Below, one piece after another: positions 22,555 to 64,000 of a stretch of DNA of 64,000 nucleotides. Both the position numbers and the translations under genes were made by a program. Below the pieces are notes generated by a model. It worked only from the letters and a program-made list of their open reading frames with translations, was not told where the DNA came from and searched no databases. Every line of letters starts with the position of its first letter. Position 1 is the first letter of the stretch. Origin of the DNA: Cyanophora paradoxa CCMP329 (Eukaryota; Plantae; Glaucophyta); assembly GCA_004431415.1 (NCBI GenBank), contig QPMI01000531.1:119844-183843 (forward strand), in the 5' to 3' direction.

Positions 22555-22603
22555 TGGAACCTTCGCCTGCTTCCAGACGAACCCGGCTCTTGCTCGACCC
22601 CGT

Positions 22604-31051: not shown

Positions 31052-31113
31052 TGCTAGGCCCGTATGTTGTGGTCGTTTTCGTGACGAGGACGTCACGTTG
31101 GTGCTAGGACGAA

Positions 31114-31542: not shown

Positions 31543-32307
31543 TCGCTCGTGTCTGGAGGCTTCTCTGCAGAGAAACGTGTCACTTTCGCTGTGCAAGTAA
31601 ACTTTGTATGGGTGAAAATATTTGCTGAAAGTTTTCGAAAGTTTACTGAAAATTTACAGGGCATTTTGGGATAATAAAATTTCAGCAACACTGCTCGCCG
31701 CCGAGTCGCCGGCCGCGGCTGGCTCGGAGAACTCGCGGAGTCGCGGTGCTAGTAGCCTGCTACCGGGTACTAGCGGGTACAGTCGCGTCGCCAACTTGCA
31801 TGGTCCATCAGGTTCATGAATGATCATGAATCAAGGTGATGAATGTTGGCGTCACTGTTGGCGTCACTGTTGGCGTTGCAACTAATATAACAAGTGGCTT
31901 GATTGAAAATAATGGCAGGTGGGTACATGCTGCGGCATTTGTGTACCAGCCAGCTTCGAACCTGCGTCTCGCGCACTGTCAGGTGACATACATCGCGGCG
32001 CCGGCGGCGGGCGCTCAAACACGGCGGAGAGCACCGGGAGACCTGTAGTGCTGTAACCGATTGAACGGAAGCAGTAGGAAAACAGTAGCAGTGCCGGACC
32101 CGTCCGGTGCGTGCGTCTGCATATGCATGCATGGGGCAGGCCTGGAAGCGAACTCAATCAGCCAGCGCGTCGCGATGAGATCATGATCAGCCCAAGACTC
32201 AAGCGCGCGTTAGCGCGCGTTGTAATTAACGCGCCTGACTCAACATGTACAGGTGTGGGGCTCTACGTGACAGTTCTGCGGGCACATCGGCGATCTTATA
32301 CGTAGCA

Positions 32308-43338: not shown

Positions 43339-43521
43339 TTGCGAGGCGTTGATTTCAATCCCTGAGTAATCGATGTAAACTCTATGTAAACTCAATCATC
43401 TATCTACGTATACGTATACGCCGTCCCGCCCCGGCCCCGCCGGAGCCGCCGCGCCGCCCGCCGAAGCCGACGTCGACGCGACGCCGGCGCCGGCGCGCGG
43501 TGCTGTCCGAACAAGTCGCAG

Positions 43522-46154: not shown

Positions 46155-47400
46155 GGCCCGGCGGGGGCGCGGCGGGCGGCGGCGCTTCTCGTCGGGCGGG
46201 GCGGAGGCGCGGCGGGCGGCGGCGTTGCTCACTGGACGGGGCCCGGCGGGTGCGCGGCGGGCGGCGGCGCGGCTGATTGGACGGGGCCCGACGGGGGCGC
46301 GGCGGGCGGCGGCGCGGCTCGTCGGGCGGGGCGGAGGCGCGGCGGGCGGCGGCGCGGCTCGCCGGACGGGGCCCGGCGGGGGCGCGGCGGGCGGCGGCGC
46401 GGCTCGCCGGACGGGGCCCGGCGGGGGCGCGGTGGGCGGCGGCGCGGCTCGCCGGACGGGGCCCGACGGGGGCGCGGCGGGCGGCGGCGCGGCTCGCCGG
46501 ACGGGGCCCGGCGGGGGCGCGGCGGGCGGCGGCGCGGCTCGCCGGACGGGGCCCGGCGGGGGCGCGGCGGGCGGCGGCGCGGCTCGCCGGACGGGGCCCG
46601 GCAGGGGCGCGGCGGGCGGCGGCGCGGCTCGCCGGACGGGCCCGGCGGGGGCGCGGCGGGCGGCGGCGCGGCTCGCCGGACGGGGCCCGGCGGGGCGCGG
46701 CGGGCGGCGGCGCGGCTCGTCGGGCGGGGCCCGGCAGGGGCGCGGCGAGCGACGGCGCGGCTCGCCGGACGGGGCCCGGCGGGGGCGCGGCGGGCGGCGG
46801 CGCGGCTCGTCGGGCGGGGCCCGGCGGGGGCGCGGCGAGCGACGGCGCGGCTCGCCGGACGGGGCCGGCGGCGGCGCGGCGGGCGGCGGCGCGGCTCGTC
46901 GGGCGGGGCCCGGCAGGGGCGCGGCGAGCGACGGCGCGGCTCGCCGGACGGGGCCCGGCGGGGGCGCGGCGGGCGGCGGCGTGGCTCGTCGGCCCGCGGG
47001 CGGGGCGGAGGCGCGGCGGGCAGCAGCGCGGCTCGTCGGGCGGGGCCCGGCAGGGGCGCGGCGGGCGGCGGCGCGGCTCGTCGGGCGGGGCCCGGCAGGG
47101 GCGCGGCGGGCGGCGGCGCGGCTCGTCGGGCGGGGCGGAGGCGCGGCGGGCGGCGGCGCGGCTCGCCGGACGGGGCCCGGCGGGTGCGCGGCGGGTGCGC
47201 AGCGGGCGGCGGCGCGACCCGCCGCACGGGCCCGGCGGGGGCGCGGCGGGCGGCGGCGTGGCTCATTGGACGGGGCGGAGGCTCGGCGGGCAGCGGCGCG
47301 GCGCCGGCTCGCCGGACGGGGACCGGCGCGGCAGAGGCCGGCCCGGCGGGGGCGCGTCGGGCGGTGGCGCGGCTCGCCGGACAGGGGGGGAGCTCGGCGG
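46155..47400. repeat. 45-bp extremely GC-rich minisatellite
   Basis: Unit ggcgggcggcggcgcggctcgccggacggggcccggcgggggcgc with 45-bp period (46360, 46405, 46450...), degenerate at both ends. Confidence 0.92.
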
Positions 47401-49807
47401 GCTCGCCGGCTCCGGGCGGGGCGGGCTCGCCGGCGGGCAGCCATCGGCTCGCGGGGCGCCGGCGCGCGGGCAGCCGTCGGCTCGCGGGGCGCCGGCGCAG
47501 GGGCGGCAGGGGGCGGGTGGCAGGGGGGCGGGCGTTTGAGGGGCCCCACCCCTGCCGGCCCGGCCCGACCGGCGCCTGCTGCCTTGTATAGCATTTGAAG
47601 CACTCAAATAGCTTTCGTTTGTCGCTTTCCCGACCCCAGCAGAGCCTGTGCCGCGCGCCTGGGTGCCGCGCCTTCGCCGGGGCCCCTTGGTTCATGGTCA
47701 CGCCGATCGATCGCGACGACAGAGCGAGCCAGCAGAGCTTCATTTCGATATAATGAGTGAGATTATTAAAGAATTATATCTTAAGAGTGTGTGCACCGAT
47801 TTTCGCGGCAAGCGCGAACGTTCCGGACGATGCACGTTATCATGAGTCTTTAGACCAAAGTACTAGACCTGACTTCTCTAAGTTCATCATCAATTCTATT
47901 TCAACATCGATCAGCGCTGCTCATTGTCCGGAACGTTCGGCGAAGCTTGGTATTTGAATACAAATGAAGTATTTAGACCACGTACATCTTGATCCCAAAG
48001 CGGGAAGTCGCTGGGAGTACTGCGTCTTTGATCATGAGCCAGGCGGGGCATGCTCGAGCCGCAGGCCTCCCGCGCGCGCGCGCGGGCCCGGCCCACTACG
48101 CTTGAGTGAAAAACCGGTGCTAGTGCGGGTTTACCTTCCGTCTGAGGCCTGAGAAAGGCCCGCGGCCCGACCGCCGCGGCGGTACGCCGTGATAACCGGA
48201 GGGCACCTAGGCGTACTAGTACTTCGCCGCGTGCCGCGGGTGGAGCTCTGAGCGGGGCGCGTCCTGAGGGCGCACATACGTCCTAAAGAAGGAAAACATG
48301 CGACTGCACGCGGCTAGAGCCTCGGGGAAGCCCAGCAGCTAAAGTCGCCTCGGCCGGGCCGGCGCCGCGGCGCGCGCGGCAGCACGCTGCGGCAGTGCGG
48401 CAGCACGCTGCGGCAGCGCGGCAGCGCGAGACTAGTACAGTACTGGGGTGCTTTCCGCTGCGGACCGCTGGCCAGGGGTATGGGGACCCTGGGGGGTACA
48501 AGACTGAAGCAGCAAACTGCCACCTGCGAGCGAGCGAGCCAGCGCGCCGCGCGCTAATCAGCGGCTATCCGCGGCCTCTAGAGCGTAGAGACAACTCGTT
48601 GGCATGGCGGGCGCTCCGATCGGCGCTGTTTCCGCGAGGTCACCGACCTCCAGGTTCGCACGCCTCGGTGCCGCAAGACCTTCCGTCTAGAGTACGCATG
48701 AGAGCTCTCATTCACGTTCTGCGCACCAGTTCTGTTCTCCGGGGAAGCCAGCAGAAGATCCTACGCACTTGGCTCTTCCACACTAAGGCATGAAGCAGTG
48801 CGCCCAGAGTTGTTTTAACACGCTAGTTGCGCTTCTGCAACGTCAAAGCATCGATCTGGAGCTTCGCTGCGCCTGGATCGTTGTGCCGGCTGACTTGCGC
48901 TTGGCTGCTCGTCAGACTTCTCGAGAAGGCTTCTCGTCAGGTGAAGGCGGCCCGGAAGCAGCCGCGGCGCTCTTCATGCTTGCTATGAGCTTCTCGCTCC
49001 TCGGCGCTACGCCCCGCGCTTTGCCTCGACCTCTCGCAGCCGAGCGCTGGGCTACTGGCTGCCCAATTCAGTACTAACTCGTCTCTCGAAGCTGCGGCTC
49101 GTCGCCTCACGTTCACGATCTACTTCACCGGTGCGCACTCCTCGCTCAAGCCCGCCCTCTCATGCTGCCACCGCTGCTCTCCCCGCCTTAGCTGACTTGC
49201 GGCGTGCGCAGGATGTCCGGATCGCGGAGCCTGCACGGCGAAAGCGTCCGAGAAGCGACGGCGGCCCTTTGCCCGCTTGGTGCGCGCCTCGCCGCCCTTC
49301 AGCGCCGCGCGCCGCGCGACGGGGGGAGCGCAGGAGCCCCGAATCCCGGCGCCTGCGCGGCGGAGGCGGCCGTGAGGCTGCGGCGGCCCTCCCTTCGCTT
49401 GGTGCGCGCCTCGCAGCCCTTCAGCGCCCTCCCCCTCCCCTCTAAAGCTAGACGCCAAGTGACGCCCGCTAGAGCTAGATGGCGGGGCTGCAGCCCCGGC
49501 GACGGCCCTCAGGTGCCGCCGCTGGTGCCTTGTCCCGCTGTCTTCTAGCCGCCCTATATATGTGGGCCTTTGTGAAGCGTTGAGCTCTCGAGCTTGCCCC
49601 TTCGCTGTCAATGCATTGTTAACCCTCGGAGGTTGCATGAGTCACGCGTCGCGGAGGTTTGGGTGTTATATTGCGATCAGGTACACGCTGCACTAACAGG
49701 GGGGCTAGCACTAACCGACGCGGGGAGTAACAGCCGGTGTACCCCTCGGGGGGCCTCCCGGCCTCTAACGATGCTCAGGCTCTAACTGAATGCTGTACCC
49801 CCCGCTG

Positions 49808-50546
49808 TTACTGCCCGAACCTTCCGAACTTGCGTAATTCGGCCTCGCCCTGTACCCAGTGGCTGGTGTCGTCCATCCATTCGCGTACCTCCCTCTGACG
49901 CTTGAGTGACTCACGCTGCTCGGGGGTAGGGGAGGGGGGCCTTCGAGGCGGGGTGGGGAAGGGGGTACGGTGGCAAAATTCAGCCACTCGGGGGTATGCC
50001 GAATTCGCCGTGAACGATCCTCTGCGGTGTGAAATACCGGTCGCTGCTCACGGCCAAGTGGAAGAACGCGCTCCTGAGCCCGGAGAGGAAGCGTGGTTGC
50101 ATGAATGGCTGCTGGAGGGACTCGTCGCGCCAGGGGGCTACGAAATCAATGATACGCTGCTGTACCTGCGCGGGCAGGGCAAGGATCTGGCTCTTGCGGT
50201 TCGCAAAGGCCGTCCACAGCGCTTGCAGGTCGGCCCAATCGCCGTTCAGATCCCTGCGTTCGCGCCTCAGGTACGATCTCGGGTTCTCTGTCATACCCAT
50301 CAAGCCCGCGGCCCTGATCATCTCCCTGTCCGGGAGCTCTCGCTCGTCGTGGAATTCGTCTCTAATCCAGCGCACAAGGTAGAGCACGCGCTCCATGAAG
50401 TTCTCCGCCGGCGAGCCGCCCCCTGAGGACGTGCGCCTCCCCTCCAGCACTGCGTTCGCATCCTCCAAGTCCACGTTCCGCTGTCGAATCTCCCCGTCCA
50501 GGTCGCCGTTGTTGTACAGCACGTCGGACTCGCGTGTTCGCGCCAT
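49808..50546 (-). CDS. Hypothetical protein, paralog of 50613-51274 (frameshifted near the 3' end)
   Basis: ORF 49980-50546 continues in another frame to ...REVREWMDDTSHWVQG..GQ*. Confidence 0.6.
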
Positions 50547-50612
50547 GCTCGCGGCTCGGTGAGAATTTATACCTGTACCCCTACTCGCGGTCGGGGTACC
50601 TGTCGCCGGGCA

Positions 50613-51274
50613 TCAGCCTCGCGCGCTTCCGCATCTCCGCCTCCCGGGTAGCCAGTTCTTCGGGTCGTTGCTCCACTCCTCCCATTCGCGTATGTCCCGT
50701 CTGACGTCACGCGGGGCGGGGGCGTTTATCGGTGGGCGGGCGGGGCTGGCAGGGCCTGGCGCGGGGGTTGAGGCCCTGTTCCACGAGTACTCGGGGTACT
50801 CTTCCCATCCCAGGGGTACCAGATTCATCGGAATTGGCTCAACTTCGAATTGGGGCTTTTTGACGTGATAATCATAGTTTGTGACATACGCCGTCACAGC
50901 CGAGCGCAAGCGCGAGAGGTCGCGCAAATTTACGTCGTCCCATTGCGAGTCCCTTGCCTTCGCGTACCACTCGAGGATTTGCATGCGAATGTGGTCCGGG
51001 AGGGTCGAGAGTATGCTGAGCTTGGAGCCCAGGGCGAACCAGATGCGCTTGAACTCGTCGATAATCCTGCCCTCGTCGTGGCTCCGAACGTAAAGGGCCC
51101 GCCAGAGTTGTAATGCGTGTCTAGCCACCCTGCCCGGGCCAGCTCTAGCACCGGCCAGGGTTGGCGCTGTCGATTCGGTCGCGAGGCCTGCTCTACCACC
51201 CAGCGTCTAAGGTCCTTGACCTGATCTATGAACTGTGCGATCACGTCCCTGGGCGCTTCCTCTGCATCCGACAT
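50613..51274 (-). CDS. Hypothetical protein, paralog of 49808-50546 (frameshifted)
   Basis: MSDAEEAPRDVIAQF.. joined to ORF 50613-51128. Confidence 0.6.
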
Positions 51275-51324
51275 TTGCAATTGCACACATCAAGAAATTC
51301 TAAACGCTACTGCGAGGCTACGCT

Positions 51325-52014
51325 ATGCATACCGATACAAATTGCGAGACTTTGCAACAGGGGAGCGCAGCGTGGCACGCGGCGCGCCGTGAAAAACTAA
51401 CTGCATCTAATTTTGCGGCTGCGTGCGGCATAAACCCCTGGAAATCCAGGGCCCGCCTGTGGGCGGAGCTAAGCGGGATAGCGGAGGAAAACAACTTTGA
51501 CAACCCTGCCCTAACCTATGGGCATGACTATGAGCCCCTCGCGGTCTCTATCTACAAGGCACTGAACGATAACGTTGACATTAAACATACTGGACTGCAC
51601 GAACATAAAGAAATGCCGTTCCTCGCCGGTAGCCCCGACGGACTTATAGGAAATGATAGAATTTTAGAGGTGAAATGCCCGTACAAGGGCGAACTTTATG
51701 ATAGAGTTCCTACTTATTACATGCCGCAGTTACAAGGACTTCTGGACATAACGGGCCGCGAGTGGGCCGAACTTTTTTGCTTCACTCCTCTGCGCGTGCA
51801 AACGTGGTACGTCAGGCGCGACGAGAGGTACATCGAGCTCATGAGGAAGTGCTTACATCTATTTTGGATGCACGTCAAGGAGGGCACGCCGCCCGAGCCC
51901 TACAGCGATCGAATGAAGTTAGAGAACCTCAGCGAGGAGCAGGCGGCGCTGCGCGAGTTTAAGTCGTACGCCCTCCTCTCAGAGTCTAGGCAGACTACTT
52001 CTGTCCCAGGCTAG
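51325..52014 (+). CDS. YqaJ/lambda-exonuclease-like viral recombinase nuclease
   Basis: QGSAAWHAARR..LTASNF, YGHDYEPLA, FLAGSPDG, LEVKCP, YYMPQLQGLL; intact and intronless. Confidence 0.95.
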   Translation: MHTDTNCETLQQGSAAWHAARREKLTASNFAAACGINPWKSRARLWAELSGIAEENNFDNPALTYGHDYEPLAVSIYKALNDNVDIKHTGLHEHKEMPFLAGSPDGLIGNDRILEVKCPYKGELYDRVPTYYMPQLQGLLDITGREWAELFCFTPLRVQTWYVRRDERYIELMRKCLHLFWMHVKEGTPPEPYSDRMKLENLSEEQAALREFKSYALLSESRQTTSVPG

Positions 52015-52523
52015 GTCTTTGGAATCTTAATATAAATTTTCCGGGGACCCGGGACAGGCCTTGTCGGACATGGCAATGTCAGAACCTTCCCGATCATCTA
52101 GATCTATAATGATTCTAGGGAGGGTCCAGACACATCTCTTGTGCGGACCACTTCTGTCCCAGGTCTTTGGAATCTTAATATAAATTTTCCAGGGACCCGG
52201 GACAGGCCTCGTCGAACAAACCTCTTCATGGGCCAAGATTTCGTGCATGCATCGGCCGCAGCTCATGCGAAAAATCATGTCTGATCCGATCCTGATCATG
52301 ACGTCCTGCAAATTGAAGAATCGTCTGACCGGGAGTGTCCCGGGTCCCTGGAAATTTTATATTAAGATTCCAGAGACCCGGGACAGATCTACCTAGAGGG
52401 AACATCCAAAATGCTGTACCCCTCCCACCCCGTGATCTTTCGAATTCAATCTGATGGGCCGACCTGAGTGACGGTGTCCTGGGTCCCGGAAAGTTTATAT
52501 TAAGATTCCAAGGACCTGGGACA
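52002..52523. repeat. Four copies of a 50-bp palindrome with AT-rich spacer (two forward, two reverse)
   Basis: TGTCCCAGGTCTTTGGAA-TCTTAATATAAATT-TTCCAGGGACCCGGGACA at 52002, 52155, 52336 (rc), 52475 (rc). Confidence 0.93.
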
Positions 52524-52589
52524 AGAGCAATGCATTTTCGCACGACGTTGACATAGCCTGATCACGAGAGAAAAATGTACCCCGATCTA

Positions 52590-55500
52590 TCAAATCCGCC
52601 GATGGAGCAGCGAGTAGCAGTCGCAGAACAGATCTTTCACCTCCAAGTAATCCGGCCCCACGCCAGCCCAGCGCTGCCTTGCTTGGCGCTCTGCAACATC
52701 TTCGAGAGTGTCTTCCTTGACCCACGTGATGCACTTGCGCTTGCGAGAGCCGGCGCCCTCCTGCCCTTCTCGGGTCCGTTTTTCCCCGGACCGGGCCCGT
52801 CTCACCCCCATGTACTTTTCGAGCAGGTACTGAATCACCCGCCACGACTGCTGCGCAAGCTTGGCCTTCTCATTGTCCGATGCATCGAGTTTAGGGGCCC
52901 GCTCGTCCAGACTCTGCAGCACCGCGTAAGCCTCCCGGCCCTCCGGTGATGCGAGCGCCGCGTAGGCTTCGTCCGACCAAAGCATACAGCTGTCGCCGGC
53001 CAGCTTCTCGTACCCCGGCCCAAAAAGTCGCTTGAAAAGCTCCGCAACCTTCGAGACCCTGTGGTACTCAGTAGACGAGGCGATCTCGGCCATGTCGCCG
53101 CCGCGCTTCAGCACAAGGATGATCCGCGACATCAGCGGGATCGAGTAGAATGACTTCCACAGCCAGGCCACGTCGCTCTCGGTCAGCGCGCTTGCGTCCT
53201 TGGCCAGGAACGCAGCGGTCGCTAGGCGCGCGAGTGCAGCAACCTTCTCCACGTCGACCTTAGCAAGCGAATCGCGCGAATGCCACCAGGAGTCCAGCAG
53301 CATGTACAGTTCGGTGATGTCCAGGGGCGGAGACTCGAGTACGTACTTGATCTCGCGCTGCCGCTGCTCCTTCTCCTCTTTCGGCCCTTGTTTCCCTGAT
53401 CCTCCGTGACCCGCACGTTCATCACGGCGCAGGTCGACAGCAGCCGCAGCCGCGCGGCCACGGCGAGGCGCCGCGTCGGCATGCCGGCCCGCCGACTCCC
53501 GTGATGGCTCGCCTTCAAGTCCAGATAGCGCTGCGTGTCTGCAGTGCTAGCTCTCTCATCATCGCTCTCACGCCAGTGCGCGGTCGCCTCGCCCACGCTG
53601 ACGGAGGGCGCGGACGCGCGGCTCTTGCGCACGGCGACGAGCAGGTGCTCTCCGCCGGGCGGCTCGCCGCGCCTGCGCAGCTTTCTCACTCGGAACAGCA
53701 GCTGCACGATGTCGTCGGCCTCTAGCTGCGCGGGTTCGGCCTGGAAAACGCCGTAGATCTTGTCAAAGTGCGCTTCCGGAAAGTCCACGCCGCCCCGAGC
53801 GCGGACGTCGCGATGAGCACGTCGCAGGCCTTGTACGCGCCCTCCTCCGAGACGTCGATCGACACTACGCGGACCGGGCCCTCGTTCGTGAAGCGCACGC
53901 TCTTCTCCTTCGCCTGCCCAACGATGAGCCCAATTGTGAACGGTGCGCCGCTGCCGTCCTCGGGCCCTGCCTCGAGCTGAGTCACGTACTGAGCGCCGCC
54001 AGGCTGAGCTGCTCCAGCGCCTGCTTCGAAATCTTGTCTGCTAGCTCATTCGCCTTGGCCGGCGTCTCCGCGATGATCATGGCCCGCGAGCGCCCAGGTC
54101 GGCACTGCACCATGATGTCCTTCTCGACGTGCGCCGGGCTGTCTGACACGCGCATCTTCCAGTCGCAGGTCCGGCGCGAGTTGTGCAGGAGCCCAAGGCG
54201 CGCCCCGCGCTCCAGCGCGGACTCCGCGAGGTACGCGAGATCGACCGGCCGGACGAAGCCGTCCATCGCCACGATGCGCGAGGCCTTCATCACGTTTCGC
54301 ATTAGCTGCACGCAGCGCGCGTTTCGGGGCATTGACCGCACGCCCATGTGCAGGCCGGCGGGTTCGAGGGTGCCGCTCGAAGTGAGGTGCTTCGTGAGGG
54401 AGGAGAGCTCGTCCAGCACGATCATCAGCGGCGCAGTCGACCAGCCCGCCCAGTCCTCAAGTACCTTGTGCAGCGAGTCGATCGTGATGACGACGCACCT
54501 GCACTTCGGATGGCGGTAGCCCCACTTGCCGTGCGTCCCATTTGAGCTCTCCGGCGGCTTCTGAATGTCCATGTACAGCACGGCGTCCTCAGGCAGGCCC
54601 ACGTCATCCAGGCGGCGCTTCAGGTCGCGGGAGAAGGCGCGGCGGCAGGTCAAGAGGATCACGCGCCAGCCCCCCTCGAGGGCTGGCTTCAGGTACGTCT
54701 CGATGAGGGCCTGCGTCTTCCCCGTGTTGAGGCCCGAGCAGATGACGTCGACCTGGGCGGCCCCCGGCTCCAGCGGACCGAACGTGGAGGTGAGCAGCCC
54801 TGGATCGCGCGTCAGGTAGTCCGTATCCACGACCTTCACGCAGTGCGGTGTCAGGCCCGTCGATTCGAGTGCGATCAGGAGCGACGGGAGGGCCACGTCG
54901 AGCGCCACGGGCTGGGACGGGTCCGTCACGTAAGACGCCGCCGTCTCGCTGCAGCTCCCGTCTCCAGCTCCCCCTCCTGCTCCACCTCGACACCGTGCGC
55001 CCGAATCGCGATTCTGAGGGCCGGCGATCCTGGCTGATCGCTCATCTTCAGGGTGATTGTTCCGTCGGGCTCGACTGCAATGTCTTGAACGCGGCGGGGG
55101 TCATTCAGGCTGATCTCAGTGCGCAACGCCGCCCCCGCCCGCCAGATCTCGTCCTCACCAGCTTGTTCTCGCGCAGGAGGCTCAGGAACCGATCGAAGTC
55201 CGGGAGCGGAGCCTGGGCGTCGCCCGTCAAGCTCAGCGGGGGTGGGGCGGCTCCTTGCGGGGAGGAGCTCCTGGCGCCGCAGTCCCGAGCAAGCCCCCGA
55301 GCTGCGGCGCCCTGCGGCCCCTGCGCCACCCCCTGCGCCGATCCCTGCGTCGGCCCTGCAGGACGTAGGCTCCTGTGTCGTCCCCCCCGAGCTCCAGGCC
55401 GCTAGATGTCCCCAGCAGCCAGGTCGCAAAGGCGCAGGCCTCCGGGCTCTGCAGGACGTAGGCAGCCTTGAGCCCGTTGTGCGATGTTCGAGAGAAAGTG

Positions 55501-55754
55501 AGGCCTCCGAAGCTCTCCGCGCATGCACGGGCGGCCGCGGTGCTCGTCTCGTCTTCCGCGTCGGAGAAGTGCTTGGACATGATGTGCGGCGGGTGAAAGA
55601 TACAGAAGACCATTCCGAGATCAGCGCTGCAGACCTTCTGGACGCAGACGAGGGGGAAGCGAGTGAAGAAAAGCTCTTCTTGCGGGCTCAGGTCCACGGG
55701 AGTTACCCCCGGCAGACGGGAGAGTAGACTGTCGGAGCACGTCGAGGTGGCCAT
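52590..55754 (-). CDS. Replication origin-binding protein-like SF2 helicase (UL9/OBP family), ~1050 aa across several frameshifts
   Basis: ICSGLNTGKT, LLTCRRAFS, TIDSLHK, IVLDELSS, AMDG, VLIATSALGAG(V)DFPEAHFD, QLLFRVR. Confidence 0.88.
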
Positions 55755-55933
55755 GCTCTCGGGTTAGGCCTGCTGTTTCGTGTTAGGCTTGGAAAATTTT
55801 CAGTGGCACCGGCCGGAAACTGCACACCTTGAGAACTCGAACTCGAACTCCAAGGCTCGGTGAATTGGCGCTAGCTGCACTGTCGACGTCGACTGTCGGA
55901 CCGTCGACGTCGGACTTCGGATGTCTCGTCTTC

Positions 55934-55983
55934 TGTCCCAGGTCTTTGGAATCTTAATATAAATTTTCCAGGGACCCGGGACA
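55934..55983. repeat. Fifth copy of the 50-bp palindrome, upstream of the helicase
   Basis: Identical to 52155-52204. Confidence 0.93.
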
Positions 55984-56368
55984 CTCTGGTCTGACGACGC
56001 TGCAGCTCGAAGCGCTCAACTGGGTCCGGTTGACGGCACACAGGCTATCAGGGTGCCAGGCCTAGCCTAGTACGTAGGCTGACCGTCGGACCAGTACTGG
56101 CGGTTCAGTTGAAGCCGAGTACTACTAGCGCTAGCTATAGCGCCAGCGCTAGCTGTAGGCTAGTACTAGTACTAGATCGAGAGACGGTACGGCGCGCCAC
56201 AGCTAGCGAGCTCGCGCTCGCTCGCCTTTGCGCTGAAGCTTAGAAAATTTTGGGCTCACGCGGTCGTTCCACGTGTTCTGTCCGGACAACCTGTACCCCA
56301 GCTGTCCAGCCAAGTAGTCAGAGCTCTCCAATCCTGCGGCGCTTGGGCCCGTGCTTCTCAGAGCACTT

Positions 56369-57978
56369 GATGGAGGCCAGCGTGTGCGTTCTGTGCTCTC
56401 GGGAGCCGCCGCTTCGTTCCCGCCGATGCAGAAGTGCGTCTCGGTCGGCGACCCCTCTCTCCGCGGAGCGGCTAGCTGGAGAGCTCTCCCGATGCCGCGC
56501 GCTTACACTGCGGTGCGCAGGCTCGGTTGCTGTGGCCGGCAACCTTCGAGAGCTCGATGGCACCCAAGCTGAACCACCTCGCCGCATCGCGGAGGTGCTG
56601 GCTCCCTCTTTCGCAGCTCTTTCGCTTACACTTACACTTTCGCTAGACCGTGCCGCACAGCCTCGCGCTCATTTCCCCACGTTCGCAGAACTTCGGCGTC
56701 GGCGCAGGTTCCGGGATCTGCGACCGCGCCTCCCGCAGCTCGAGCCGGCGTCTGCGGCGACCCGCGCATGCATCTAGATCCTATTCTGAAACCCGTGCGT
56801 CGATCCGGGGTCCCGGGCTCGCGTTCCTGCGCCTCCCGGACCCTCACACTGCTCCTGTTTGCATCCTAGCTAAGACCTTCCTCGCCCGCAGCCGGTCTCG
56901 TCCTCGGCACATTGTGAGCGGCATCAGTGGAGCTGGAGTTCCGCACTTTATGCAGGCCCGTGCGCCCTTTCCCGCCCCGCCCCGCCCAGCCCCGCCCCGC
57001 CTCGCGTGCGCTATAGCTAGCTAACCCTGTCGCGCGCGCCGCAGAGGGTTCGTAGCCGGAGGGCTCGCAGGCCGCGGCCCGGACACCTCCGCCGCCGTCG
57101 GCGCCGACATCGAGAACGGCCGGCTGGACGAGACCCTCGCCGGCTTCGGCTCCTGGTGCCGCCCCTACTCCTACAAGCTCGGCGGCGTCTGGCAGACCTA
57201 CATCCGCGGCATCGTCCCAAGGCCCCGCTCTCCCTCGGCGAGAGCCAGCCGGCGCTGGAGGCGATCGCGATCCCCGTCGCCCAGTTCAAGGACCCGGCGC
57301 CCGACGTCGGGCCCTTCCTCGTCAAGCCCCACACCAAGGGCAAGGGCAAGCGCACCCGCAACTCGGCGCCGGCCTTCCTCCCGCCCCAGCCCCCCGCCAC
57401 GGCCCCCAGCAGCGCCCCGGCCAGCAGCGCATCGACGAGATGCTGCCGCGCCAGGTCCGGCCCCGCGTACCCCCCGCCTTCCCTGTACCTCCCTCCCCCT
57501 CGCCCCGTTCCTGATCCAAGGGCAGGGTACCTCGGCCTCCCCCGCGAGCGCCGACGGCCCCAGCCCCGTCCCCGGCCCCGGCCACGTCCTCTCCGCGATC
57601 CAGGGCTTCGGGGCCCAGCAGGAGGCCGAGCGGCAGGCGCTGGCGGCGCGCCAGGCGCGCGAGGCGGAGGAGCGGCGCCAGGCCCTCTGGGCCCAGCGCC
57701 TCCAGCGCACCCTCGCCTTCCGCGCCGAGCTGGAGGCGGGATTCCGCGCCCGCCAGATCTCCGGTGCGGAGGCCTCGGAGACTTGGCGGGCGTTCGAGGC
57801 GGAGACGGCGGGGCTGGCGAAGACCCTCGCCCAGCCCTACCGGCGCGTGGCCGTCCCGCAGTCCTACGCGCGGCGGGCGACGCTGGAGGCCTCGCGGGCG
57901 GAGATCGACGCGGCGGAGGAGCAGGCGGAGCGCGAGGAGGCCGAGGACAACGCGCGCTTCCGGCACCTCCACCACTGA
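56369..57978 (+). CDS. Intron-containing hypothetical gene with C-terminal coiled coil
   Basis: Host-style introns (e.g. ~56956-57044 and ~57455-57526); exons ..RPYSYKLGGVWQTYIRG.. and ..QQEAERQALAARQAREAEERRQ..RHLHH*; 5' structure uncertain. Confidence 0.5.
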
Positions 57979-58026
57979 GGCCTCGAGGCGGTATTTTTTC
58001 TCAACCCCTTCCAATTCGGTCTCGCG

Positions 58027-58218
58027 ATGGCCCTCGCTGACAGCTATCCCCCGCATTACTCGCTAGGAGCCCTCGCCGCGACCCTCACCTGGCTCCTCGG
58101 CGGCACGCCCACGGCCTCGGCCGTCATCGGCGTGGGCTTCGGCTACGCCGCCAAGACCCTCTACGCCCCCGGCTCCGTCTCGATGGCGACGGCCGGCATG
58201 CGCCCCGCGGGGCGTTAA
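58027..58218 (+). CDS. Small hydrophobic protein
   Basis: 63 aa ORF with two hydrophobic stretches. Confidence 0.55.
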   Translation: MALADSYPPHYSLGALAATLTWLLGGTPTASAVIGVGFGYAAKTLYAPGSVSMATAGMRPAGR

Positions 58219-58325
58219 CTCTCCCTTTTCAAAGTTCCATTCCCCCCTTTCCCTTTTCAAAGTTGCGACGTCCTTTTGAGTCCGTTGGCATTTAAATTTT
58301 CTTCATCGTCTGTACACGTCTAAAC

Positions 58326-58822
58326 ATGCCCAACGCCGTAGAGAAGCTGTTGTGTACGGTGTTCAAATCGGACTCGCGCTGCAGCAAGATCGGCGAGGCT
58401 GCCAAGGGCGGGGGCGGGGCGAAGGCCGGCGGCGGGGCGGAGGGCCTAAGATAAGGGGCGCGGACCCGGCGCCGCCGGCGCTAAAGTCGATTAAGGCTGC
58501 GGGCAAGGGCCGCGGCGTCGGGCCCCTGCCCCTCGTGGCGATCGCCCCGGGCCAGCGCGAGGCGGCGCACGCGGCGACGGCGGCGCTGGCCTCGCAGCAG
58601 CAGAGGGAGGGGGCGCCGCGCCTGAGCGCCGGCCTCTGGTCGCAGCCTGCGCCCGCGCGCGAGTACGGCGTCAGCGCTTACTTCGACGGCGCGAACGAGC
58701 TGAGCCGCCAGGAGATCTGGGCCTGGGAGGCGCGGCGCGCGGTCGACGGGCACCTGCCGTTGCTCGTGGCGCTCGGCGGCTCGCTCCTCATGGTCTGGTA
58801 CCTGCGCGGCTTCGCGATTTAG
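58326..58822 (+). CDS. Small protein with C-terminal TM anchor (frameshifted)
   Basis: MPNAVEKLLC.. joined to the frame ending LPLLVALGGSLLMVWYLRGFAI. Confidence 0.6.
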
Positions 58823-58851
58823 ATAGATTTTCGAAGCGCTAGCTAGTAGAG

Positions 58852-59178
58852 ATGAGCTGGCTCGACGCGCTGCTCACCAAGACCTTTGGGCCCAAGGGCG
58901 CGCCGCGGCTGCAGTTCGGTGAGCTCAACGCCGCGATCGGCGCCACAGTCGAGATGAAGAACCGCGAGAACGTGCTGCGCGGCGACGGAGGCGCGTGGGC
59001 GGACATTGCGGCGGGCGCGCTGGGCTCCGCACTCACCGCACCGGGCAAGGCGGGCCGCGCGCTCACGGACGTGGCCGAGCGCTTCTGGCACTGGCTCAAG
59101 GTTGCCGTGGTCATCGCCGCAGCGGTTGTGGCGGGTCTCCTGGTGCTCGAGGCTCGCGCGCTATTTTCTAAACGCTAG
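58852..59178 (+). CDS. Small protein with C-terminal TM anchor
   Basis: 108 aa; WLKVAVVIAAAVVAGLLVL. Confidence 0.7.
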   Translation: MSWLDALLTKTFGPKGAPRLQFGELNAAIGATVEMKNRENVLRGDGGAWADIAAGALGSALTAPGKAGRALTDVAERFWHWLKVAVVIAAAVVAGLLVLEARALFSKR

Positions 59179-59193
59179 GTAAAGCGAGCGAAC

Positions 59194-59598
59194 CATGCCC
59201 CGCGGCGGCTCTTCCCCCGTGTCTCCTTCGCTGAGAACGAAGTCGCCGCTACCCCCCTGGAGCCCGGCGTCAAGCTGGAGCGCGCGAACGCAGTCTCCGT
59301 CAAGAAGGCCAAGCGCGCGCTGGTTCTAGAAGTCCCCAAGACCGCCTCGCAGTTCCTTCCCACGTCCGAGTACGACGGCACGGAAGATACGGAGAAGGTT
59401 GCATTCAACAAGCGCAAGACGTACAAGGCGATACGCGAGGGCCAGCTGCTGCCCACGGACGCGGTTCCCGGGCTGCCGGGCACCACGGCCGGCGAGCTGC
59501 TCGTGCGCAACCTGCGCCTGCAGTACGTCTCCCGCCTCCGCCGCTCCAAGGCCAAGAAGGCGCGCCTGGACTCGGGCGATAGCAGCTCTAGCTCGTAG
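59194..59598 (+). CDS. Small basic hypothetical protein (frameshift near start)
   Basis: Open frame ..KLERANAVSVKKAKR..RLRRSKAKKARLDSGDSSSSS*. Confidence 0.55.
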   Translation, partial: HAPRRLFPRVSFAENEVAATPLEPGVKLERANAVSVKKAKRALVLEVPKTASQFLPTSEYDGTEDTEKVAFNKRKTYKAIREGQLLPTDAVPGLPGTTAGELLVRNLRLQYVSRLRRSKAKKARLDSGDSSSSS

Positions 59599-59614
59599 GG
59601 CTCTGTACTCAATA

Positions 59615-59899
59615 CTACCAGTTCCTGTTCCTATCCCAGAGCACGACTCGGGTAAAGGGCACGGTCATAGCGAACATGAACTCGGCAAACTTGGAGAAGT
59701 TCATGAGGGTCCCTAGGCGCGGGTCCTCCCAGTAGATAGCTTCGCGCAGGGACTCGTAGATGCGCATGAGGGAGCGCTCGTTCTCGGTCGCGAAGGCGTC
59801 GGAGGGCTCGTCGGGATCCGGATCCGAGAGCTCCGAGTACTCGTCCGAGCTGCCAGCGCTCTCGACGCCTGCGGCCGGGTCGGGCGAGGGGTCAGCCAT
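59615..59899 (-). CDS. Small acidic hypothetical protein
   Basis: 94 aa ATG ORF tightly packed with neighbours. Confidence 0.65.
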   Translation of the reverse strand: MADPSPDPAAGVESAGSSDEYSELSDPDPDEPSDAFATENERSLMRIYESLREAIYWEDPRLGTLMNFSKFAEFMFAMTVPFTRVVLWDRNRNW

Positions 59900-59925
59900 T
59901 CTTTGCTGGTAGAAGGGCTAGAAAA

Positions 59926-60266
59926 TCACGGGCGCCGGTACTCCATCGAGTCGCCGCGCCAGTACTTGTTGCCGGAGGCGAGCAGCTTCATCGGCTCGCC
60001 CGTCGAGTCGTGCGTCCAGGCCTCGCCCGTCCAGACGGCCGTGCCGCCGTCCTCTAGCTTGAGGCGGTGGCCCGCCTCGAGCCGATCGCCGTTGAGCATG
60101 CGGCCGGCCATGAGCGCCAGGTCCCACTCGGTGAGGCCGCGCTGCTCTTCGGGGTGAGGCCGCGCTCGACGCGCTCGGGCTGGCGCGCCTCGCGCTCCAT
60201 GCGGCTGAGGCCCACCAGGAAGAAGATCGGCAGCGCAAAGGCCATGAGATCTAGCAGGGCCTCCAT
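59926..60266 (-). CDS. Small protein with N-terminal TM segment (frameshifted)
   Basis: MEALLDLMAFALPIFFLVGL.. joined to ..GTAVWTGEAWTHDSTG.. Confidence 0.6.
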
Positions 60267-60276
60267 TGGGCAAGAC

Positions 60277-60570
60277 TTAGAAAAGGTTCCGGGCCAGGCC
60301 CGAGAGCTGCGGGCCCAGGCGCCGGGCGGCGTAGTAGAGCGCGGCGGCCGCGGCGGCCAGGATCAGAAGGCGCGGCGGGCCGCGCGCGGGCTCCTCCAGG
60401 GTCAAGTCCACGGTCTCTGGCTCGCGGGCCGGCGTCGCCAGGATCTCGGGCTCGGAGCTAAGGGACTTGGGCCCGCGGCGGCGGCGCTGCTTGGGGGCGG
60501 AGGCGGCGGCGGCGGCGGAGAGAAGGTCCTCGGGCTCCTGCTTGATACCTGCGCAGTCAGTAAAGTCCAT
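60277..60570 (-). CDS. Small protein with C-terminal hydrophobic segment
   Basis: 97 aa; LLILAAAAAALYYAA. Confidence 0.6.
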   Translation of the reverse strand: MDFTDCAGIKQEPEDLLSAAAAASAPKQRRRRGPKSLSSEPEILATPAREPETVDLTLEEPARGPPRLLILAAAAAALYYAARRLGPQLSGLARNLF

Positions 60571-60634
60571 GCTTGCTGGGTACCTCGGAAAATTGTGGGA
60601 GGTGCCCGGCGGCTGCGAACGTAGGATGGGGGGA

Positions 60635-62070
60635 GAAGTGACGCGGACGCGAATACGTCATAGTCGAATACGTCATAGTCCAAAACCTGGACTCGGGACT
60701 CGGCCCGGGCCCTGGGGAGGGGGGTACATGTTATGTCCAAATGTCCAAATGTCCAAATGTCCAAATGTCCAATTGAAAGGTTGCGGAGGTTGCGGACGCG
60801 TCACAAATACGTCATAGTCGAATACGTCATAGTCCAAAACCTGGACTTGGGACCTGGGCCCAGACTCTCGCCAAGTTTCAAATAATAATACTGTACCCCT
60901 GTTATCTGCAAGCTTATCTTATCGTTATCGTGTCACCTATCCTATCCCGATCCTATCGCTATCCTTTCGCGATCGCTTGACTACACTATTGCATTCATTG
61001 CTTTTGAATGTAGTTAATGTCATAGCAACTTGAACATGATGTCATGATGATTTCAAGTTAAATACCGGGGTACGGTGTTTTTGTTCAAGTCTCTTTTTTT
61101 TACCGGCAGGGCCCGGGCCGAGTCCCGAGTCCAGGTTTTGGACTATGACGTATTCGACTATGACGTATTTGTGACGCGTCCGCAACCTCCGCAACCTTTC
61201 AGTTAATTAATTAAGCACTGGGCTAGCGCTAGGCTAGCTAGATATCGATACCAGCTAGCTAGCTCAGCTCTACCCTGCCCAAGTTGATGGTATCTAGCAG
61301 CGCCTGCTCCTCTAAGTCTGCACCGCCTCCTCCTAGCGCTAGCGCTAGCTCGATACCGCCTCCAGACTTGATCTCCTTGGCTTCAGCCACCGAAGGGGCT
61401 CAGGCCACCTCCTCCTGGTGAAGCCGGTATCGTTGCGCTTGTCCAGCTTGAGGTAGCGGTAGGGCGCCGGCGCCGGCCAGTCGGGCCTGTGGCTGCTGGC
61501 CTCCTTGGCTATGTCCTTGGGCCTACGCGGAAGCAGGTCGGCCTTGGCCTTGGCCTTCTGCAGAGGGCCCAGCGCCTTGAACTTCGGTGCCTTCGTCGCC
61601 GGCAGGGCCTTCGGCTGAGGCTTCGGTGCCTTCTGCGCCTTCGTCTTCGGCTGCGGCTGCGGCTTTAGCTGCTTCGATTTCGGCATACTTCTTGCTCATA
61701 AATGAGAAAAGCGCCTCGAAGTCGGCTTTTATCTCCTCCTTGGTCCAGGATGTCATCTGAGTCGGGTCACCTGAGAACGGCGCATCGAACGCCACGTGGA
61801 GCGATTTGCAGGCCTGAGCTATCATTGGCTCCGGCCAGGCCAGCTCGATCAGCTGAAGGTAGATACTGAGGGCCTTGTCGAGCTTGGCGCCCTGGGAGAC
61901 TAGCTGGGAGATGGCGGGCTCCATGGTACTGGATTAAGCAGCTAGCCGGGGTTCAGAAAATGGCGCCAAGTCCGAGCTTATTTTTTTACCGGCGGGGCCT
62001 GGCGAGTCCCGAGTCCAGGTTTTGGACTATGACGTATTCGACTATGACGTATTCGCGTCCGCGTCACTTC
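60635..62070. promoter_or_regulatory. Control region: four ~80-bp motif copies in inverted arrangement, (ATGTCCAA)5 and an AT-rich core
   Basis: Copies at 60635-60714 and 60774-60853 versus reverse complements at 61107-61201 and 61981-62070; 8-mer array at 60733-60772. Confidence 0.8.
61523..61924 (-). CDS. Hypothetical protein
   Basis: 133 aa ATG ORF; an overlapping Lys/Pro-rich frame (61345-61686) may be the true C-terminus. Confidence 0.55.
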   Translation of the reverse strand: MEPAISQLVSQGAKLDKALSIYLQLIELAWPEPMIAQACKSLHVAFDAPFSGDPTQMTSWTKEEIKADFEALFSFMSKKYAEIEAAKAAAAAEDEGAEGTEASAEGPAGDEGTEVQGAGPSAEGQGQGRPASA

Positions 62071-62174
62071 CCCCCCTCTTCAGGTGAGCGCTCACCTGAC
62101 CCTCACCTGAACGGCCTCAAAACCGCAGCCGCGCCGCGCCCTCGCTCACACTTCACAGCCAAGAAGAATCAAGA

Positions 62175-62422
62175 ATGTGCGCCCCAAGTACGAGACCTGC
62201 TGCCTGACCTTCGGCATCTTCGAGTACGAGGCCATGGACGAGGATCTCGACGAGAACGGCGAGATCTGCTTCAACTACTGCAGGCTGCTGCGCAACATCT
62301 CGCTGGAGTGCCGCAAAGGGCGACTGCTTCCAGCACATCATGCTCAATCCGCAAGAACGAGATCACCCTGTACGCCGTCGCCAGCCCCAGCGCCAGATTT
62401 AGACTCTCGAATATTCGCGTAG
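62175..62422 (+). CDS. Small Cys/acidic hypothetical protein (frameshifted)
   Basis: ..KYETCCLTFGIFEYEAMDEDLDENGEICFNYC..; end uncertain. Confidence 0.45.
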
Positions 62423-62577
62423 CCGTGATTGAGGCTCTCCCCCTCCCAGTGAGACGAATTGAACACGTGTTTTACCTGAATCACCTGAGCGCTCACCCGA
62501 GGTCAGCCTGAAGTCAGGTGGGGCGGCCTTAAATATTTTCTAGCGCTAGGCTGATCGCACACTAAGCTCAGACAACA

Positions 62578-63351
62578 ATGGCCACCGTCCGCAACGCCAC
62601 CGAGATCGACCCCGCCAAGCTCGCCTTCGAAATCGATGCCAACGCCGCATCAAGGCCAAGTACGACGGCCTGCAGGGCCTCATGATGTACGCGCCGCCCA
62701 TGGTCACGATCAACCCGTGCATCACACCGAGCAAGGCAAGGCGTGGAGCGACGAGAAGAAGGCCTTCGTCATGGAAGAAAACGGCGGATTTTACACGCTG
62801 GACCTCACCGATCTCAGCGCCGTCGACGGCCAGACGAACCAGCCGCGGACGAGTTCCTCAAGCTGCTGGAGGCCCTGGACGCGAAATTCTGCGAGTTCGT
62901 GCAGCAGAACCAGGCCAAGCTCAAGGTCTCGCCCGGGCGCGCCCTCTCCAAGGATCAGATCTCGGTGCTGCGACGCCCAGCGTGCGCATCAAGGTCGACA
63001 AGGAGTCGGGCCAGGCCTTCTACAAGTACCTCAACATGCGCATCCGCACGCAGACGATGGCGGGCAAGCGCAAGACGATCCCAGTCGTCGACATGTCCAA
63101 CTACCTCATCACGAGCGCGCCACATCGGCACCGGAGACCTGGTGGCGGCCCTCGTTAAAATCGACACCGCCTACGCCATCCCGAGGGCAAGTTCGGCCTC
63201 AAGTGGTCCTTCCTCGCCGTGCAGCAGTGCAAGGTCGGCGCCTTTCGCTTCGCCGGCCGCACGCCCGAGCTGCCTTCAAGCCCTACGACAACGAGGCCGA
63301 TTTCGAGCCCTACCTAAACCCCGAGTCTATGTACACCACCCCATGCAGTAG
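62578..63351 (+). CDS. Single-stranded DNA-binding protein, T7 gp2.5/NCLDV-like OB fold (frameshifted)
   Basis: EFLKLLEALDAKF, GDLVAALVKIDTAY..GKFGLKWSFLAVQ, acidic/aromatic tail; AATAAA at 63361. Confidence 0.7.
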
Positions 63352-63400
63352 TTTAGAACGAATAAATTGTAAATTCTCTGGTGCAATTGATTACAAGCGT

Positions 63401-64000
63401 TTACATCAGAGGCCGTTGAACTTGCCGCCACCGCCCTGGCTCCGCCGCCGTCGAGGCCGCCGCCTCCGTCACCTCCTTCATCATCTCCGGTTCGCGTTGG
63501 CCGCGTGCACCGCCAGCACCGTCTGCACCAGGGCCATCCCCAGGCGCGCTCGGCCCAGGGTCACCGTAGCGCGAGTACTTAATCACCAGCTCCTCTAAGA
63601 TCGGCTGCACCTGGTCCATGGAAGAGAGCGTCGCCTGCCCGAGCCCGTCTAACTTCAGGCGATCGGATCGTACGCTTTGTTAAGGTGCTCCAGCGAGTGC
63701 ATGCCGCGATCAGAAAGAGGCGCGCCGCCTCCAGCGAACCCCGCGTGCTCAGCTCGCGCTGAATTTCCTCGTACTCTTCCTTCAGCTCGTCCAGCGGCGT
63801 GGCGAGGCTCAGCTTCTTCGTGGACGTCAGCTCGCCCCCGAACGAGCGCCTGTACTGCGCGATCTGCCGCAGAACCTGCTTCTTCTCGTCCACGTCCACC
63901 TCGCCTCGTCGCGCGGCCTCTCCTGCAGGTCGATCCCACGCCTTTTTCACGCTCTGCTCCTTCTTCTTCGTCATTTCGATGTGCTCCTGCACGCTGAAGC
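63401..64000 (-). CDS. DUF5767-like conserved viral protein (5' part outside window, frameshifted)
   Basis: LDELKEEYEEI, LEHLNKAYDPI.LKLDGL, ILEELVIKY, RLGMALVQT resemble the NCLDV/PLV DUF5767 pattern. Confidence 0.7.

What the first reader, a model, noticed from the sequence alone, without database searches (positions are those of the whole stretch)
52002..55983. oriS-like palindromes bracket the origin-binding helicase gene
Seen: five copies of a 50-bp element with 18-bp inverted arms (15/18 Watson-Crick pairs, two further G:T) around a 14-nt AT-rich spacer. Four lie between the convergent YqaJ and helicase genes (two forward, two reverse) and one lies ~180 bp upstream of the helicase; copies 2 and 5 are identical. 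Known: herpesvirus oriS is two inverted UL9 boxes flanking an AT-rich spacer. Inference: these are cognate binding/origin sites for this OBP, giving a candidate initiator-origin pair outside herpesviruses. The upstream copy could autoregulate the gene or delimit a mobile helicase cassette.
Basis: partly seen in the sequence, partly recalled or inferred. Interest (0 to 1): 0.85.

Follow-up and report, generated by a model that had tools for sequence, protein, structure and literature searches.

The report
Candidate origin palindromes in algal provirus
Five near-identical 50-base DNA palindromes surround a helicase gene inside a multi-copy virus-like element in a genome that is likely a freshwater alga's, and they are likely protein-binding sites that help start viral DNA replication, although a role in controlling transcription is nearly as likely and no binding has been shown.

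Summary
In detail: five copies of a 50-bp imperfect palindrome (18-bp arms, 14-nt AT-rich spacer) lie where stated, far beyond chance. They sit in a multi-copy endogenous element that shares YqaJ, DUF5767 and an SSB-like gene with small NCLDV-like (mriyavirus-type) viruses. All detectable helicase relatives come from the Cyanophora paradoxa proteome. The repeat is not a scattered MITE: further copies show only a few flank types, and those that can be placed follow the YqaJ stop in sister elements. Only the SF2 helicase core is UL9-like; the RVKNL motif and herpes boxes are absent, and the C-terminal fold is unresolved. UL9-like helicases are already known in mriyaviruses, mimivirus and ASFV. 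Two additions: the GTCC-N3-GTC half-site recurs in a second origin-like inverted-repeat locus at 60.6-62.1 kb, and four of five palindromes enclose the element's own gene-upstream motif (ATTTTCTAA-like). Spliced antisense RNA crosses both convergent genes. Best reading: hr/oriS-like initiator sites (0.35). Rivals: transcription control (0.3), module-exchange sites (0.15), HUH nick hairpins (0.1), neutral duplicates (0.1).

The parts
52002..52056 (+). palindrome copy 1 (5-nt insertion in left arm); overlaps the YqaJ stop at 52012-52014
52077..52133 (+). second-type degenerate palindrome (TGTC...GACA ends); in sister elements a relative of it starts right behind the YqaJ stop
52155..52204 (+). 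palindrome copy 2; sister elements diverge from this copy a few bases behind it
52336..52385 (-). palindrome copy 3 (best paired, 17/18 Watson-Crick)
52475..52523 (-). palindrome copy 4 (most divergent; short-read contigs have one more base here than the window)
55934..55983 (+). palindrome copy 5, identical to copy 2, 180 bp upstream of the helicase ATG and between two gene-upstream motifs on the minus strand
51325..52014 (+). YqaJ-like (PD-D/ExK) exonuclease gene, intact; 97% identical to a 7-member cluster of sister copies
52590..55754 (-). UL9-like SF2 helicase gene: motifs I (54734), Ia (54650), II (54416), III (54269), V (53811), VI (53704); unassigned N- and C-terminal domains; frame broken in the window, likely by long-read deletion errors
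55788..55797 (-). gene-upstream motif (ATTTTCCAAG) 33 nt before the helicase ATG
56239..56248 (-). second-best gene-upstream motif match of the element, pointing through copy 5 towards the helicase
52534..52543 (+). gene-upstream motif match beside copy 4, pointing antisense into the helicase
60629..61204 (.). second repeat locus: 90-nt inverted arms (60771-60860 / 61115-61204) round a 254-nt AT-richer core, an extra copy at 60629-60702, five TGTCCAA iterons at 60734-60772; same GTCC-N3-GTC half-site plus paired TGACGT
62003..62076 (.). fourth copy of the second repeat family, between divergent genes upstream of the SSB-like gene
62578..63330 (+). SSB-like gene (frame broken in the window); matches a gene family of the small NCLDV-like relatives; SSB label inferred from resemblance to the published mriyavirus gene set, no library hit
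   Evidence: E 1.3e-4; E 4e-6
63400..64000 (-). DUF5767 (PF19071) gene, cut by the window end
49300..64000 (.). endogenous small NCLDV-like (mriyavirus-type) element; left end approximate, right end beyond the window

Best explanation
The five palindromes are conserved dyad sites in the YqaJ-helicase module of a multi-copy endogenous virus-like element, and they likely act as a clustered replication origin in which a virus-encoded initiator, most likely the UL9-like helicase, would bind the two inverted GTCC-N3-GTC boxes and melt the AT-rich spacer. Shown: the sites, their conservation, their limited distribution, the helicase motifs and the shared half-site at 60.6-62.1 kb. Inferred: mriyavirus-type affinity, binding by the helicase C-terminal domain, origin activity, and a possible second role as enhancer or operator, as in baculovirus hrs.
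For: Geometry matches inverted boxes round an AT spacer. Conservation stops near the unit's edges (54-bp identity of copies 2 and 5). Variation shows no compensatory pairs (0 of 18, only 4 distinct rows), which fits sequence-read half-sites at least as well as a folded RNA. The half-site pattern occurs 13 times in the element against 0.29 expected (max 3 in 100 shuffles; the pattern was derived from these sites, so this shows sharing between two repeat families, not independent enrichment). Four of the 13 lie in a second locus with inverted arms, iterons and an AT-richer core near the SSB-like gene. YqaJ and the helicase are neighbours by gene or accession number on 3 other contigs (g778/g779, g1179/g1180, P025120/P025121). 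Sister copies keep a near-identical palindrome, while the best relatives of this helicase's core are 51-78% identical in protein. Mriyaviruses lack a DNA polymerase and need a helicase, SF2 or SF3.
Against: No UL9-type DNA-binding domain was detected; the models were poor (mean pLDDT 36-37) and fold searches inconclusive. In mriyaviruses initiation is attributed to a HUH endonuclease, with SF2 and SF3 helicases interchangeable, so the helicase may have no sequence specificity. Four of five copies enclose the gene-upstream motif, and antisense RNA crosses both genes. No related virus with this helicase was found, so co-occurrence could not be tested outside this genome. The spacer is nearly invariant, more than an unwinding element needs.
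Confidence: 0.35

Rival explanations
1. Transcription control. Each unit would be a viral core-promoter motif wrapped in an operator dyad, or an oriented 3'-end signal. Copies 1-2 and 3-4 would drive antisense RNA into, or end the mRNAs of, the two convergent replication genes; copy 5 would gate helicase expression.
For: A motif ATTTTCTAA lies 9-33 nt before the ATG of 13 of 14 hand-picked element genes (score 187 against 112-134 in 20 random sets, which had fewer restarts). Copies 1, 2, 3 and 5 hold it in forward orientation (ranks 17-24 of 29,391 positions); copy 4 does not (rank 210), but a rank-16 match lies 10 nt beside it. Each mRNA first meets two forward-oriented copies. Runs X15 and X17 (RNA by guess) show plus-strand GT..AG skips inside the minus-strand helicase gene and a CT..AC skip inside YqaJ; DNA runs X1 and X12 do not. 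RNA-guess contigs of two studies begin inside copy 4 (52487 and 52516) where DNA contigs run on (weak hint only).
Against: An AT-rich spacer followed by the TTCC that pairing needs gives the motif partly by construction. Mimivirus-type polyadenylation hairpins are not conserved in sequence, these are. A targeted scan found no long AT-centred palindrome at other gene ends of the element. Contigs cannot give strand, ends or levels. An AT island in a GC-rich genome could attract host Pol II by accident.
Confidence: 0.3
2. Recombination or exchange sites. The units would be homology islands or site-specific recombination sites at which helicase modules are swapped, inverted (copies 3/4 with 5) or excised as a 3.8-kb circle (copies 2 and 5).
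For: Two arms round a near-invariant asymmetric spacer is the layout of recombinase sites (recalled). In runs X1 and X12 the stretch 52.05-56.95 kb has low summed contig depth (about 740-1760 in X1, apart from one bin with a close paralogue), while the flanks have about 6,000-24,000. Sister copies diverge just behind copy 2. Helicases are far more varied than YqaJ.
Against: The copy-specific stretch ends near 56,960, about 1 kb past copy 5. A 14-nt spacer is longer than the 6-8 nt of tyrosine-recombinase sites (recalled). No recombinase gene was found in the element part of the window.
Confidence: 0.15
3. Rolling-circle nick sites. The GC-rich stem with an invariant AT-rich loop would be the hairpin cut by a mriyavirus-type HUH endonuclease; the helicase would only unwind.
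For: All mriyaviruses encode a HUH endonuclease and their helicases are interchangeable. One relative, L219:16178-16987, has HUH-like motifs by eye (no Pfam hit). The stem-loop shape and part of the loop recall ssDNA-virus origins (recalled, untested).
Against: No HUH gene was seen in the window (profile of the relatives' gene gave no hit). Five nick sites within 4 kb would release sub-genomic circles. No comparable hairpin with arms of 16 bp or more was found in L219's 20 kb.
Confidence: 0.1
4. Neutral by-product: recent local duplication or gene conversion of one hairpin, or a MITE-like insertion, without function of the extra copies.
For: Copies 1 and 2 share flanks, as do 3 and 5, and sister elements seem to carry fewer copies. 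Copy 1 disrupts the YqaJ stop region.
Against: Only about five or six flank types among the loose ends, and roughly 15-fold single-locus depth in total, against what a genome-wide MITE would give (depth is a rough guide only). Similarity falls off near the unit's edges. The half-site is shared with a second repeat family.
Confidence: 0.1

Closest known systems
HSV-1 oriS and UL9 (OBP)
   Same: SF2 helicase core (the only PDB hits of P0001 were four UL9 sequences, E about 0.01); inverted boxes round an AT-rich spacer.
   Different: No RVKNL motif and no Box 1-3 sequences; extra N-terminal region; five copies within 4 kb; not a herpesvirus.
Mriyaviricetes (Yaraviridae, Gamadviridae); SF2_hel related to mimivirus R8 and ASFV pF1055L
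   Same: UL9-related SF2 helicase, PD-D/ExK nuclease and SSB are part of the published gene set. The element shares YqaJ, DUF5767 and an SSB-like gene with 10-36 kb viral contigs that carry an NCLDV-type capsid, A32 ATPase and VLTF3.
   Different: Published SF2_hel proteins have an intact N-terminal AEP primase; none was detected here. Capsid, ATPase, VLTF3 and HUH are not in the window. The paper's main text has no occurrence of 'hairpin' and the passages seen name no origin sequence.
Baculovirus homologous regions (hrs)
   Same: Clusters of imperfect palindromes at more than one locus, with CRE-like motifs, acting as origins and enhancers.
   Different: hrs have about 30-bp palindromes in about 70-bp units at 7-9 loci; the viral activator named there, IE1, is not known here; the second locus here shares only a half-site.
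Mimivirus hairpin-rule polyadenylation signals
   Same: Palindromes directly behind stop codons.
   Different: Those are not conserved in sequence and need a viral RNase III-like enzyme and poly(A) polymerase; these are sequence-conserved and confined to one module.
Cyanobacterial plasmid CyRepA1 replication proteins
   Same: Nearest look-alikes of the helicase by language-model features and weak tblastn hits over motifs V-VI (14 plasmids, best E 9e-3).
   Different: Similarity covers about 50-70 residues; CyRepA1 initiation is linked to small RNAs upstream of the gene.

Membership tests
Herpesvirus UL9/oriS | UL9-type SF2 helicase domain | tested here: met
   PF02399 E 4.5e-9 over profile positions 42-188; motifs I, Ia, II, III, V, VI located
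Herpesvirus UL9/oriS | RVKNL origin-recognition motif (alphaherpesviruses) | tested here: not met
   no RVKNL in the window pieces; a relaxed pattern over 5 relatives gave only RLRQL, in 2 of 5, upstream of the C-terminal domain
Herpesvirus UL9/oriS | [quoted passage not shown] | tested here: inconclusive
   models pLDDT 36-37; 9hgi_A at rank 50, Z 5.2, rmsd 11.9, 276 aligned
Herpesvirus UL9/oriS | Box 1-3 sequences in the arms | tested here: not met
   no match at up to 1 mismatch inside any of the 5 copies (boxes)
Herpesvirus UL9/oriS | inverted boxes flanking an AT-rich spacer | tested here: met
Herpesvirus UL9/oriS | origin activity and protein binding | not testable with these tools
   needs experiment
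Mriyaviricetes | NCLDV-type capsid, A32 ATPase, VLTF3 and HUH endonuclease in the element | tested here: inconclusive
   none in 47.7-64 kb; the element runs past the window end and no genome is held
Mriyaviricetes | shared accessory set (PD-D/ExK nuclease, SSB-like, DUF5767) with small NCLDV-like viruses | tested here: met
   3 of 47 profiles from relatives match true window genes; 3 more match opposite or unrelated frames
Mriyaviricetes SF2_hel | intact N-terminal AEP primase | tested here: inconclusive
   no Pfam hit in the N-terminal region of P0009; model there pLDDT under 40
Mimivirus hairpin rule | hairpin not conserved in sequence, present at most gene ends | tested here: not met
   43 of 55 alignment columns invariant; not found at other gene ends of the element
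MITE | many dispersed copies with unrelated flanks | tested here: not met
   5 copies in 64 kb, all in the module; few flank types in two DNA runs; contigs only, diverged copies under 80% not seen
Baculovirus hr | dispersed clusters of imperfect palindromes with origin and enhancer activity | tested here: inconclusive
   two loci share a half-site and one has TGACGT pairs; activity untested

The most novel reading that the evidence does not exclude
These are the first visible replication origins of a mriyavirus-type virus: a promoter-like AT core inside two GTCC boxes, read by a non-herpes UL9-like helicase or nicked by a HUH protein, with helicase and origin exchanged together as a module among endogenous copies in a glaucophyte alga.
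Probability: 0.3. Interest if true: 0.75.

Novelty: new variant of a known kind. Interest (0 to 1): 0.5.

Why it matters
Mriyaviruses are proposed to be the closest living relatives of the ancestor of giant viruses. Their replication mode is inferred from proteins only. A cultured alga with a dozen or more endogenous copies, divergent helicases and defined palindromes would make three questions testable: whether non-herpes UL9-like helicases recognise origins, whether helicase and origin vary together, and whether such viruses start by theta-like or rolling-circle initiation. If the sites are transcriptional instead, they show how an integrated virus may hold its replication genes down with antisense RNA.

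Tried and rejected
No whole genome is held, so there was no genome-wide scan. The 16-nt core in IMG/VR gave 55 single matches, none within 19 mismatches of the 50-mer: chance. No helicase relatives outside one proteome: 0 in viral contigs, 5 of 1.84 billion representatives, all from that proteome, 0 in phages. The 160 best YqaJ loci held no helicase hit and no palindrome match (best 21 mismatches); 1 of 160 also had DUF5767. The 10 DUF5767 loci gave only E 0.7 helicase hits and no repeated palindrome family; PF02399 was not found in the one record held. Two AlphaFold models were too poor for the C-terminal question; the Atlas gave no usable hit for that domain. No Rfam match in 49-64 kb. No RNA holder was on record as RNA; X15, X17 and X19 are RNA by guess and by their splice-like joints. 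The lack of RNA-guess cover at 52208-52479, and the depth fall across the palindrome in X19, were seen but are not used as evidence. Four look-ups of earlier findings returned nothing. Paper searches naming this feature found none: Polinton-like + endogenous + origin-binding + helicase, 0 papers; searches listed no paper that by title or abstract describes these palindromes. Supplements of the bioRxiv mriyavirus paper (closed) and of PMC12344493 (not opened) may bear on whether this element family is already listed.
Full report
OBSERVATION. The five copies are real and at the stated places: 52002-52056(+), 52155-52204(+), 52336-52385(-), 52475-52523(-), 55934-55983(+). Copy 2 reads TGTCCCAGGTCTTTGGAA-TCTTAATATAAATT-TTCCAGGGACCCGGGACA. 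The 16-nt core occurs five times in 64 kb, with 0 of 100 shuffles reaching five. Copies 2 and 5 are identical over 54 bp and 3,779 bp apart. Similarity falls off near the unit's edges, though copies 1/2 and 3/5 share short flanks. Among 4 distinct rows and 18 pairs, 94% of cells pair and none changes on both sides.

THE HOST AND THE ELEMENT. The window is GC-rich, with short GT..AG introns and an LTR retrotransposon. The helicase core finds 4 relatives among longer proteins and a whole-library search finds 5 clusters. Together they hold 15 proteins on 13 contigs, all labelled Cyanophora paradoxa by the source. That the window comes from this glaucophyte is my inference. GEVEs in this species are mentioned in PMC12344493 (passages seen). 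From about 49.3 kb to the window end the genes are compact and mostly intron-poor. They include YqaJ, a DUF5767 gene and an SSB-like gene. A DUF5767 protein from a metagenome contig that also has YqaJ (L060; 1 of 160 YqaJ loci) led to 10 IMG/VR contigs of 10-36 kb. Of four of these scanned (49 ORFs), three carry YqaJ, an A32 ATPase and VLTF3, and one an NCLDV-type capsid; the record of L222 also has the capsid. This is the gene set of mriyaviruses as described in bioRxiv 10.1101/2024.02.29.582850 (parts 1-3 of 6 and passages read). Membership is not shown, because capsid, ATPase, VLTF3 and HUH lie outside the window if they exist.

THE HELICASE. The gene runs 55754 to 52590 on the minus strand in several frames. 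Short-read contigs of this copy that bridge 52175-53652 and 54392-55950 have no other letters and differ only by gaps (table 8), so those breaks are likely long-read errors; the breaks between 53652 and 54392 were not resolved. All SF2 motifs looked for are present. The UL9 likeness is limited to the core: Pfam positions 42-188 and weak PDB hits at motifs I-Ia and V-VI. The origin-binding domain of UL9 is C-terminal and uses RVKNL (PMC12543377, introduction and passages). That motif is absent here, and the models could not decide the fold. UL9-related SF2 helicases are known in Yaraviridae, mimivirus R8 and ASFV pF1055L and in phages and plasmids (PMC5862659, passages). CyRepA1 plasmid proteins are among the nearest look-alikes. 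The name 'origin-binding' is thus a Pfam label, not a shown property.

DISTRIBUTION OF THE REPEAT. Contigs of public runs were laid on the window (depth is a rough guide, not a copy number). The flanks of the module have summed depths of about 6,000-24,000 in X1, and 52.05-56.95 kb mostly 740-1,760, so the helicase module is largely specific to this copy. YqaJ is 97% identical to a 7-member cluster and neighbours the helicase by number on three other contigs. At 80% likeness the palindrome positions add up to roughly 15 times single-locus depth in X1 and X11, but the loose ends show only about five or six flank types. In sister copies a second-type palindrome starts right behind the YqaJ stop, followed by a near-identical copy of this palindrome; this locus has about 100 extra bases holding copy 1 (joint 51979-52109). 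So the repeat belongs to the YqaJ/helicase junction of the element family and is not a scattered MITE. The copy-specific stretch ends about 1 kb beyond copy 5, which argues against copy 5 as a cassette end. No outside virus with this helicase was found, so linkage could not be tested independently.

TWO NEW FEATURES. (a) The arm half-site GTCC-N3-GTC also occurs in four copies of a second repeat at 60.6-62.1 kb. There, 90-nt inverted arms enclose a 254-nt AT-richer core, with five TGTCCAA iterons and paired TGACGT motifs. This locus looks at least as origin-like as the finding, and suggests one protein may read both. (b) A motif ATTTTCTAA lies 9-33 nt before the ATG of 13 of 14 element genes that I picked by eye (score 187 against 112-134 in 20 random sets). 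It recalls the TCTA late promoter of CroV and mavirus (PMC8547959, passages). Copies 1, 2, 3 and 5 contain it at the spacer/right-arm junction (ranks 17-24 of 29,391); copy 4 does not, but has a match 10 nt away. Part of this could follow from composition.

RNA. In X15 and X17 (RNA by guess; two studies) contigs skip 54995-55051 and 55119-55176, which are GT..AG on the plus strand, antisense to the helicase. They also skip 51790-51856, CT..AC, antisense to YqaJ. X1 and X12 show none of these joints. Contigs of X17 and X19 begin inside copy 4, and one of X15 stops fitting at the end of copy 5, but contigs cannot give strand or ends; this is a weak hint. Antisense RNA over both genes means the cluster either starts transcripts or does not stop them fully.

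MECHANISM. I commit to an hr/oriS-like origin cluster (0.35): an initiator dimer, most simply the helicase, binds the two boxes and opens the AT core, with the host polymerase, SSB and YqaJ acting downstream. Only the parts list and conservation are shown. Transcription control is close (0.3), and baculovirus hrs show both roles can coexist (PMC13513840, passages). The mimivirus hairpin rule fits position but not sequence conservation (PMC4402537, passages). Module exchange (0.15), HUH nicking (0.1) and neutral duplication (0.1) remain.

VERDICT. A real, element-specific cis-element family in an endogenous small NCLDV-like virus. It works plausibly like oriS or an hr, but is not a member of the UL9/oriS system on the features tested. 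The claim of a cognate initiator-origin pair is a testable hypothesis, not a result. Other papers opened: PMC12220804, bioRxiv 10.64898/2026.06.19.733378 and PMC10899382, passages only.

Noticed in passing
window 60629-61204 and 62003-62076: Second inverted-repeat family with 90-nt arms, AT-richer core, TGTCCAA iterons and paired TGACGT; shares the half-site with the finding and is itself a candidate origin or early enhancer.
   Followed up: partly
window 49300-64000: Conserved gene-upstream motif ATTTTCTAA before 13 of 14 picked genes; a candidate viral promoter or initiator element.
   Followed up: partly
window 51790-55176: Splice-like skips in RNA-guess runs run antisense to both the helicase and YqaJ; a 124-codon plus-strand ORF at 52575-52949 follows a motif match at 52534.
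   Followed up: partly
L217:11799-12002: A related virus contig has a nested palindrome (27- and 54-nt arms, short iterons, AT-rich centre) just upstream of a long ORF starting at 12036; a candidate origin in a relative.
   Followed up: partly
L219:16178-16987: ORF with HUH-endonuclease-like motifs by eye, in a contig with YqaJ, A32, VLTF3 and DUF5767; no Pfam hit.
   Followed up: partly
window 22108-31543: Ty3/gypsy-like LTR retrotransposon (gag zinc knuckle, protease, RT, RNase H, integrase) with identical 430-bp LTRs, so a very recent insertion; the subtype label is inferred from domain order.
   Followed up: partly
window 12162-12827: Tyrosine-recombinase (PF00589) fragment in a lower-GC stretch at 8-14 kb; possibly a DIRS-like element or another endogenous virus.
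   Followed up: no
window 43400-44820: Intron-rich host gene with a DNA polymerase A domain just left of the element.
   Followed up: no
window 46100-47350, 35400-37070, 41100-41800: Tandem arrays of 45-, 139- and 12-bp units; the 45-bp GC-rich array lies about 2 kb left of the element.
   Followed up: no
window 56000-56240 and 61220-61345: Non-coding stretches dense in short CTAG/TAGC/AGTACT palindromes, one between the strong minus-strand motif at 56248 and copy 5.
   Followed up: no
window 56960-57045: Host-style intron-like sequence at the right end of the copy-specific module, where multi-copy depth resumes.
   Followed up: no
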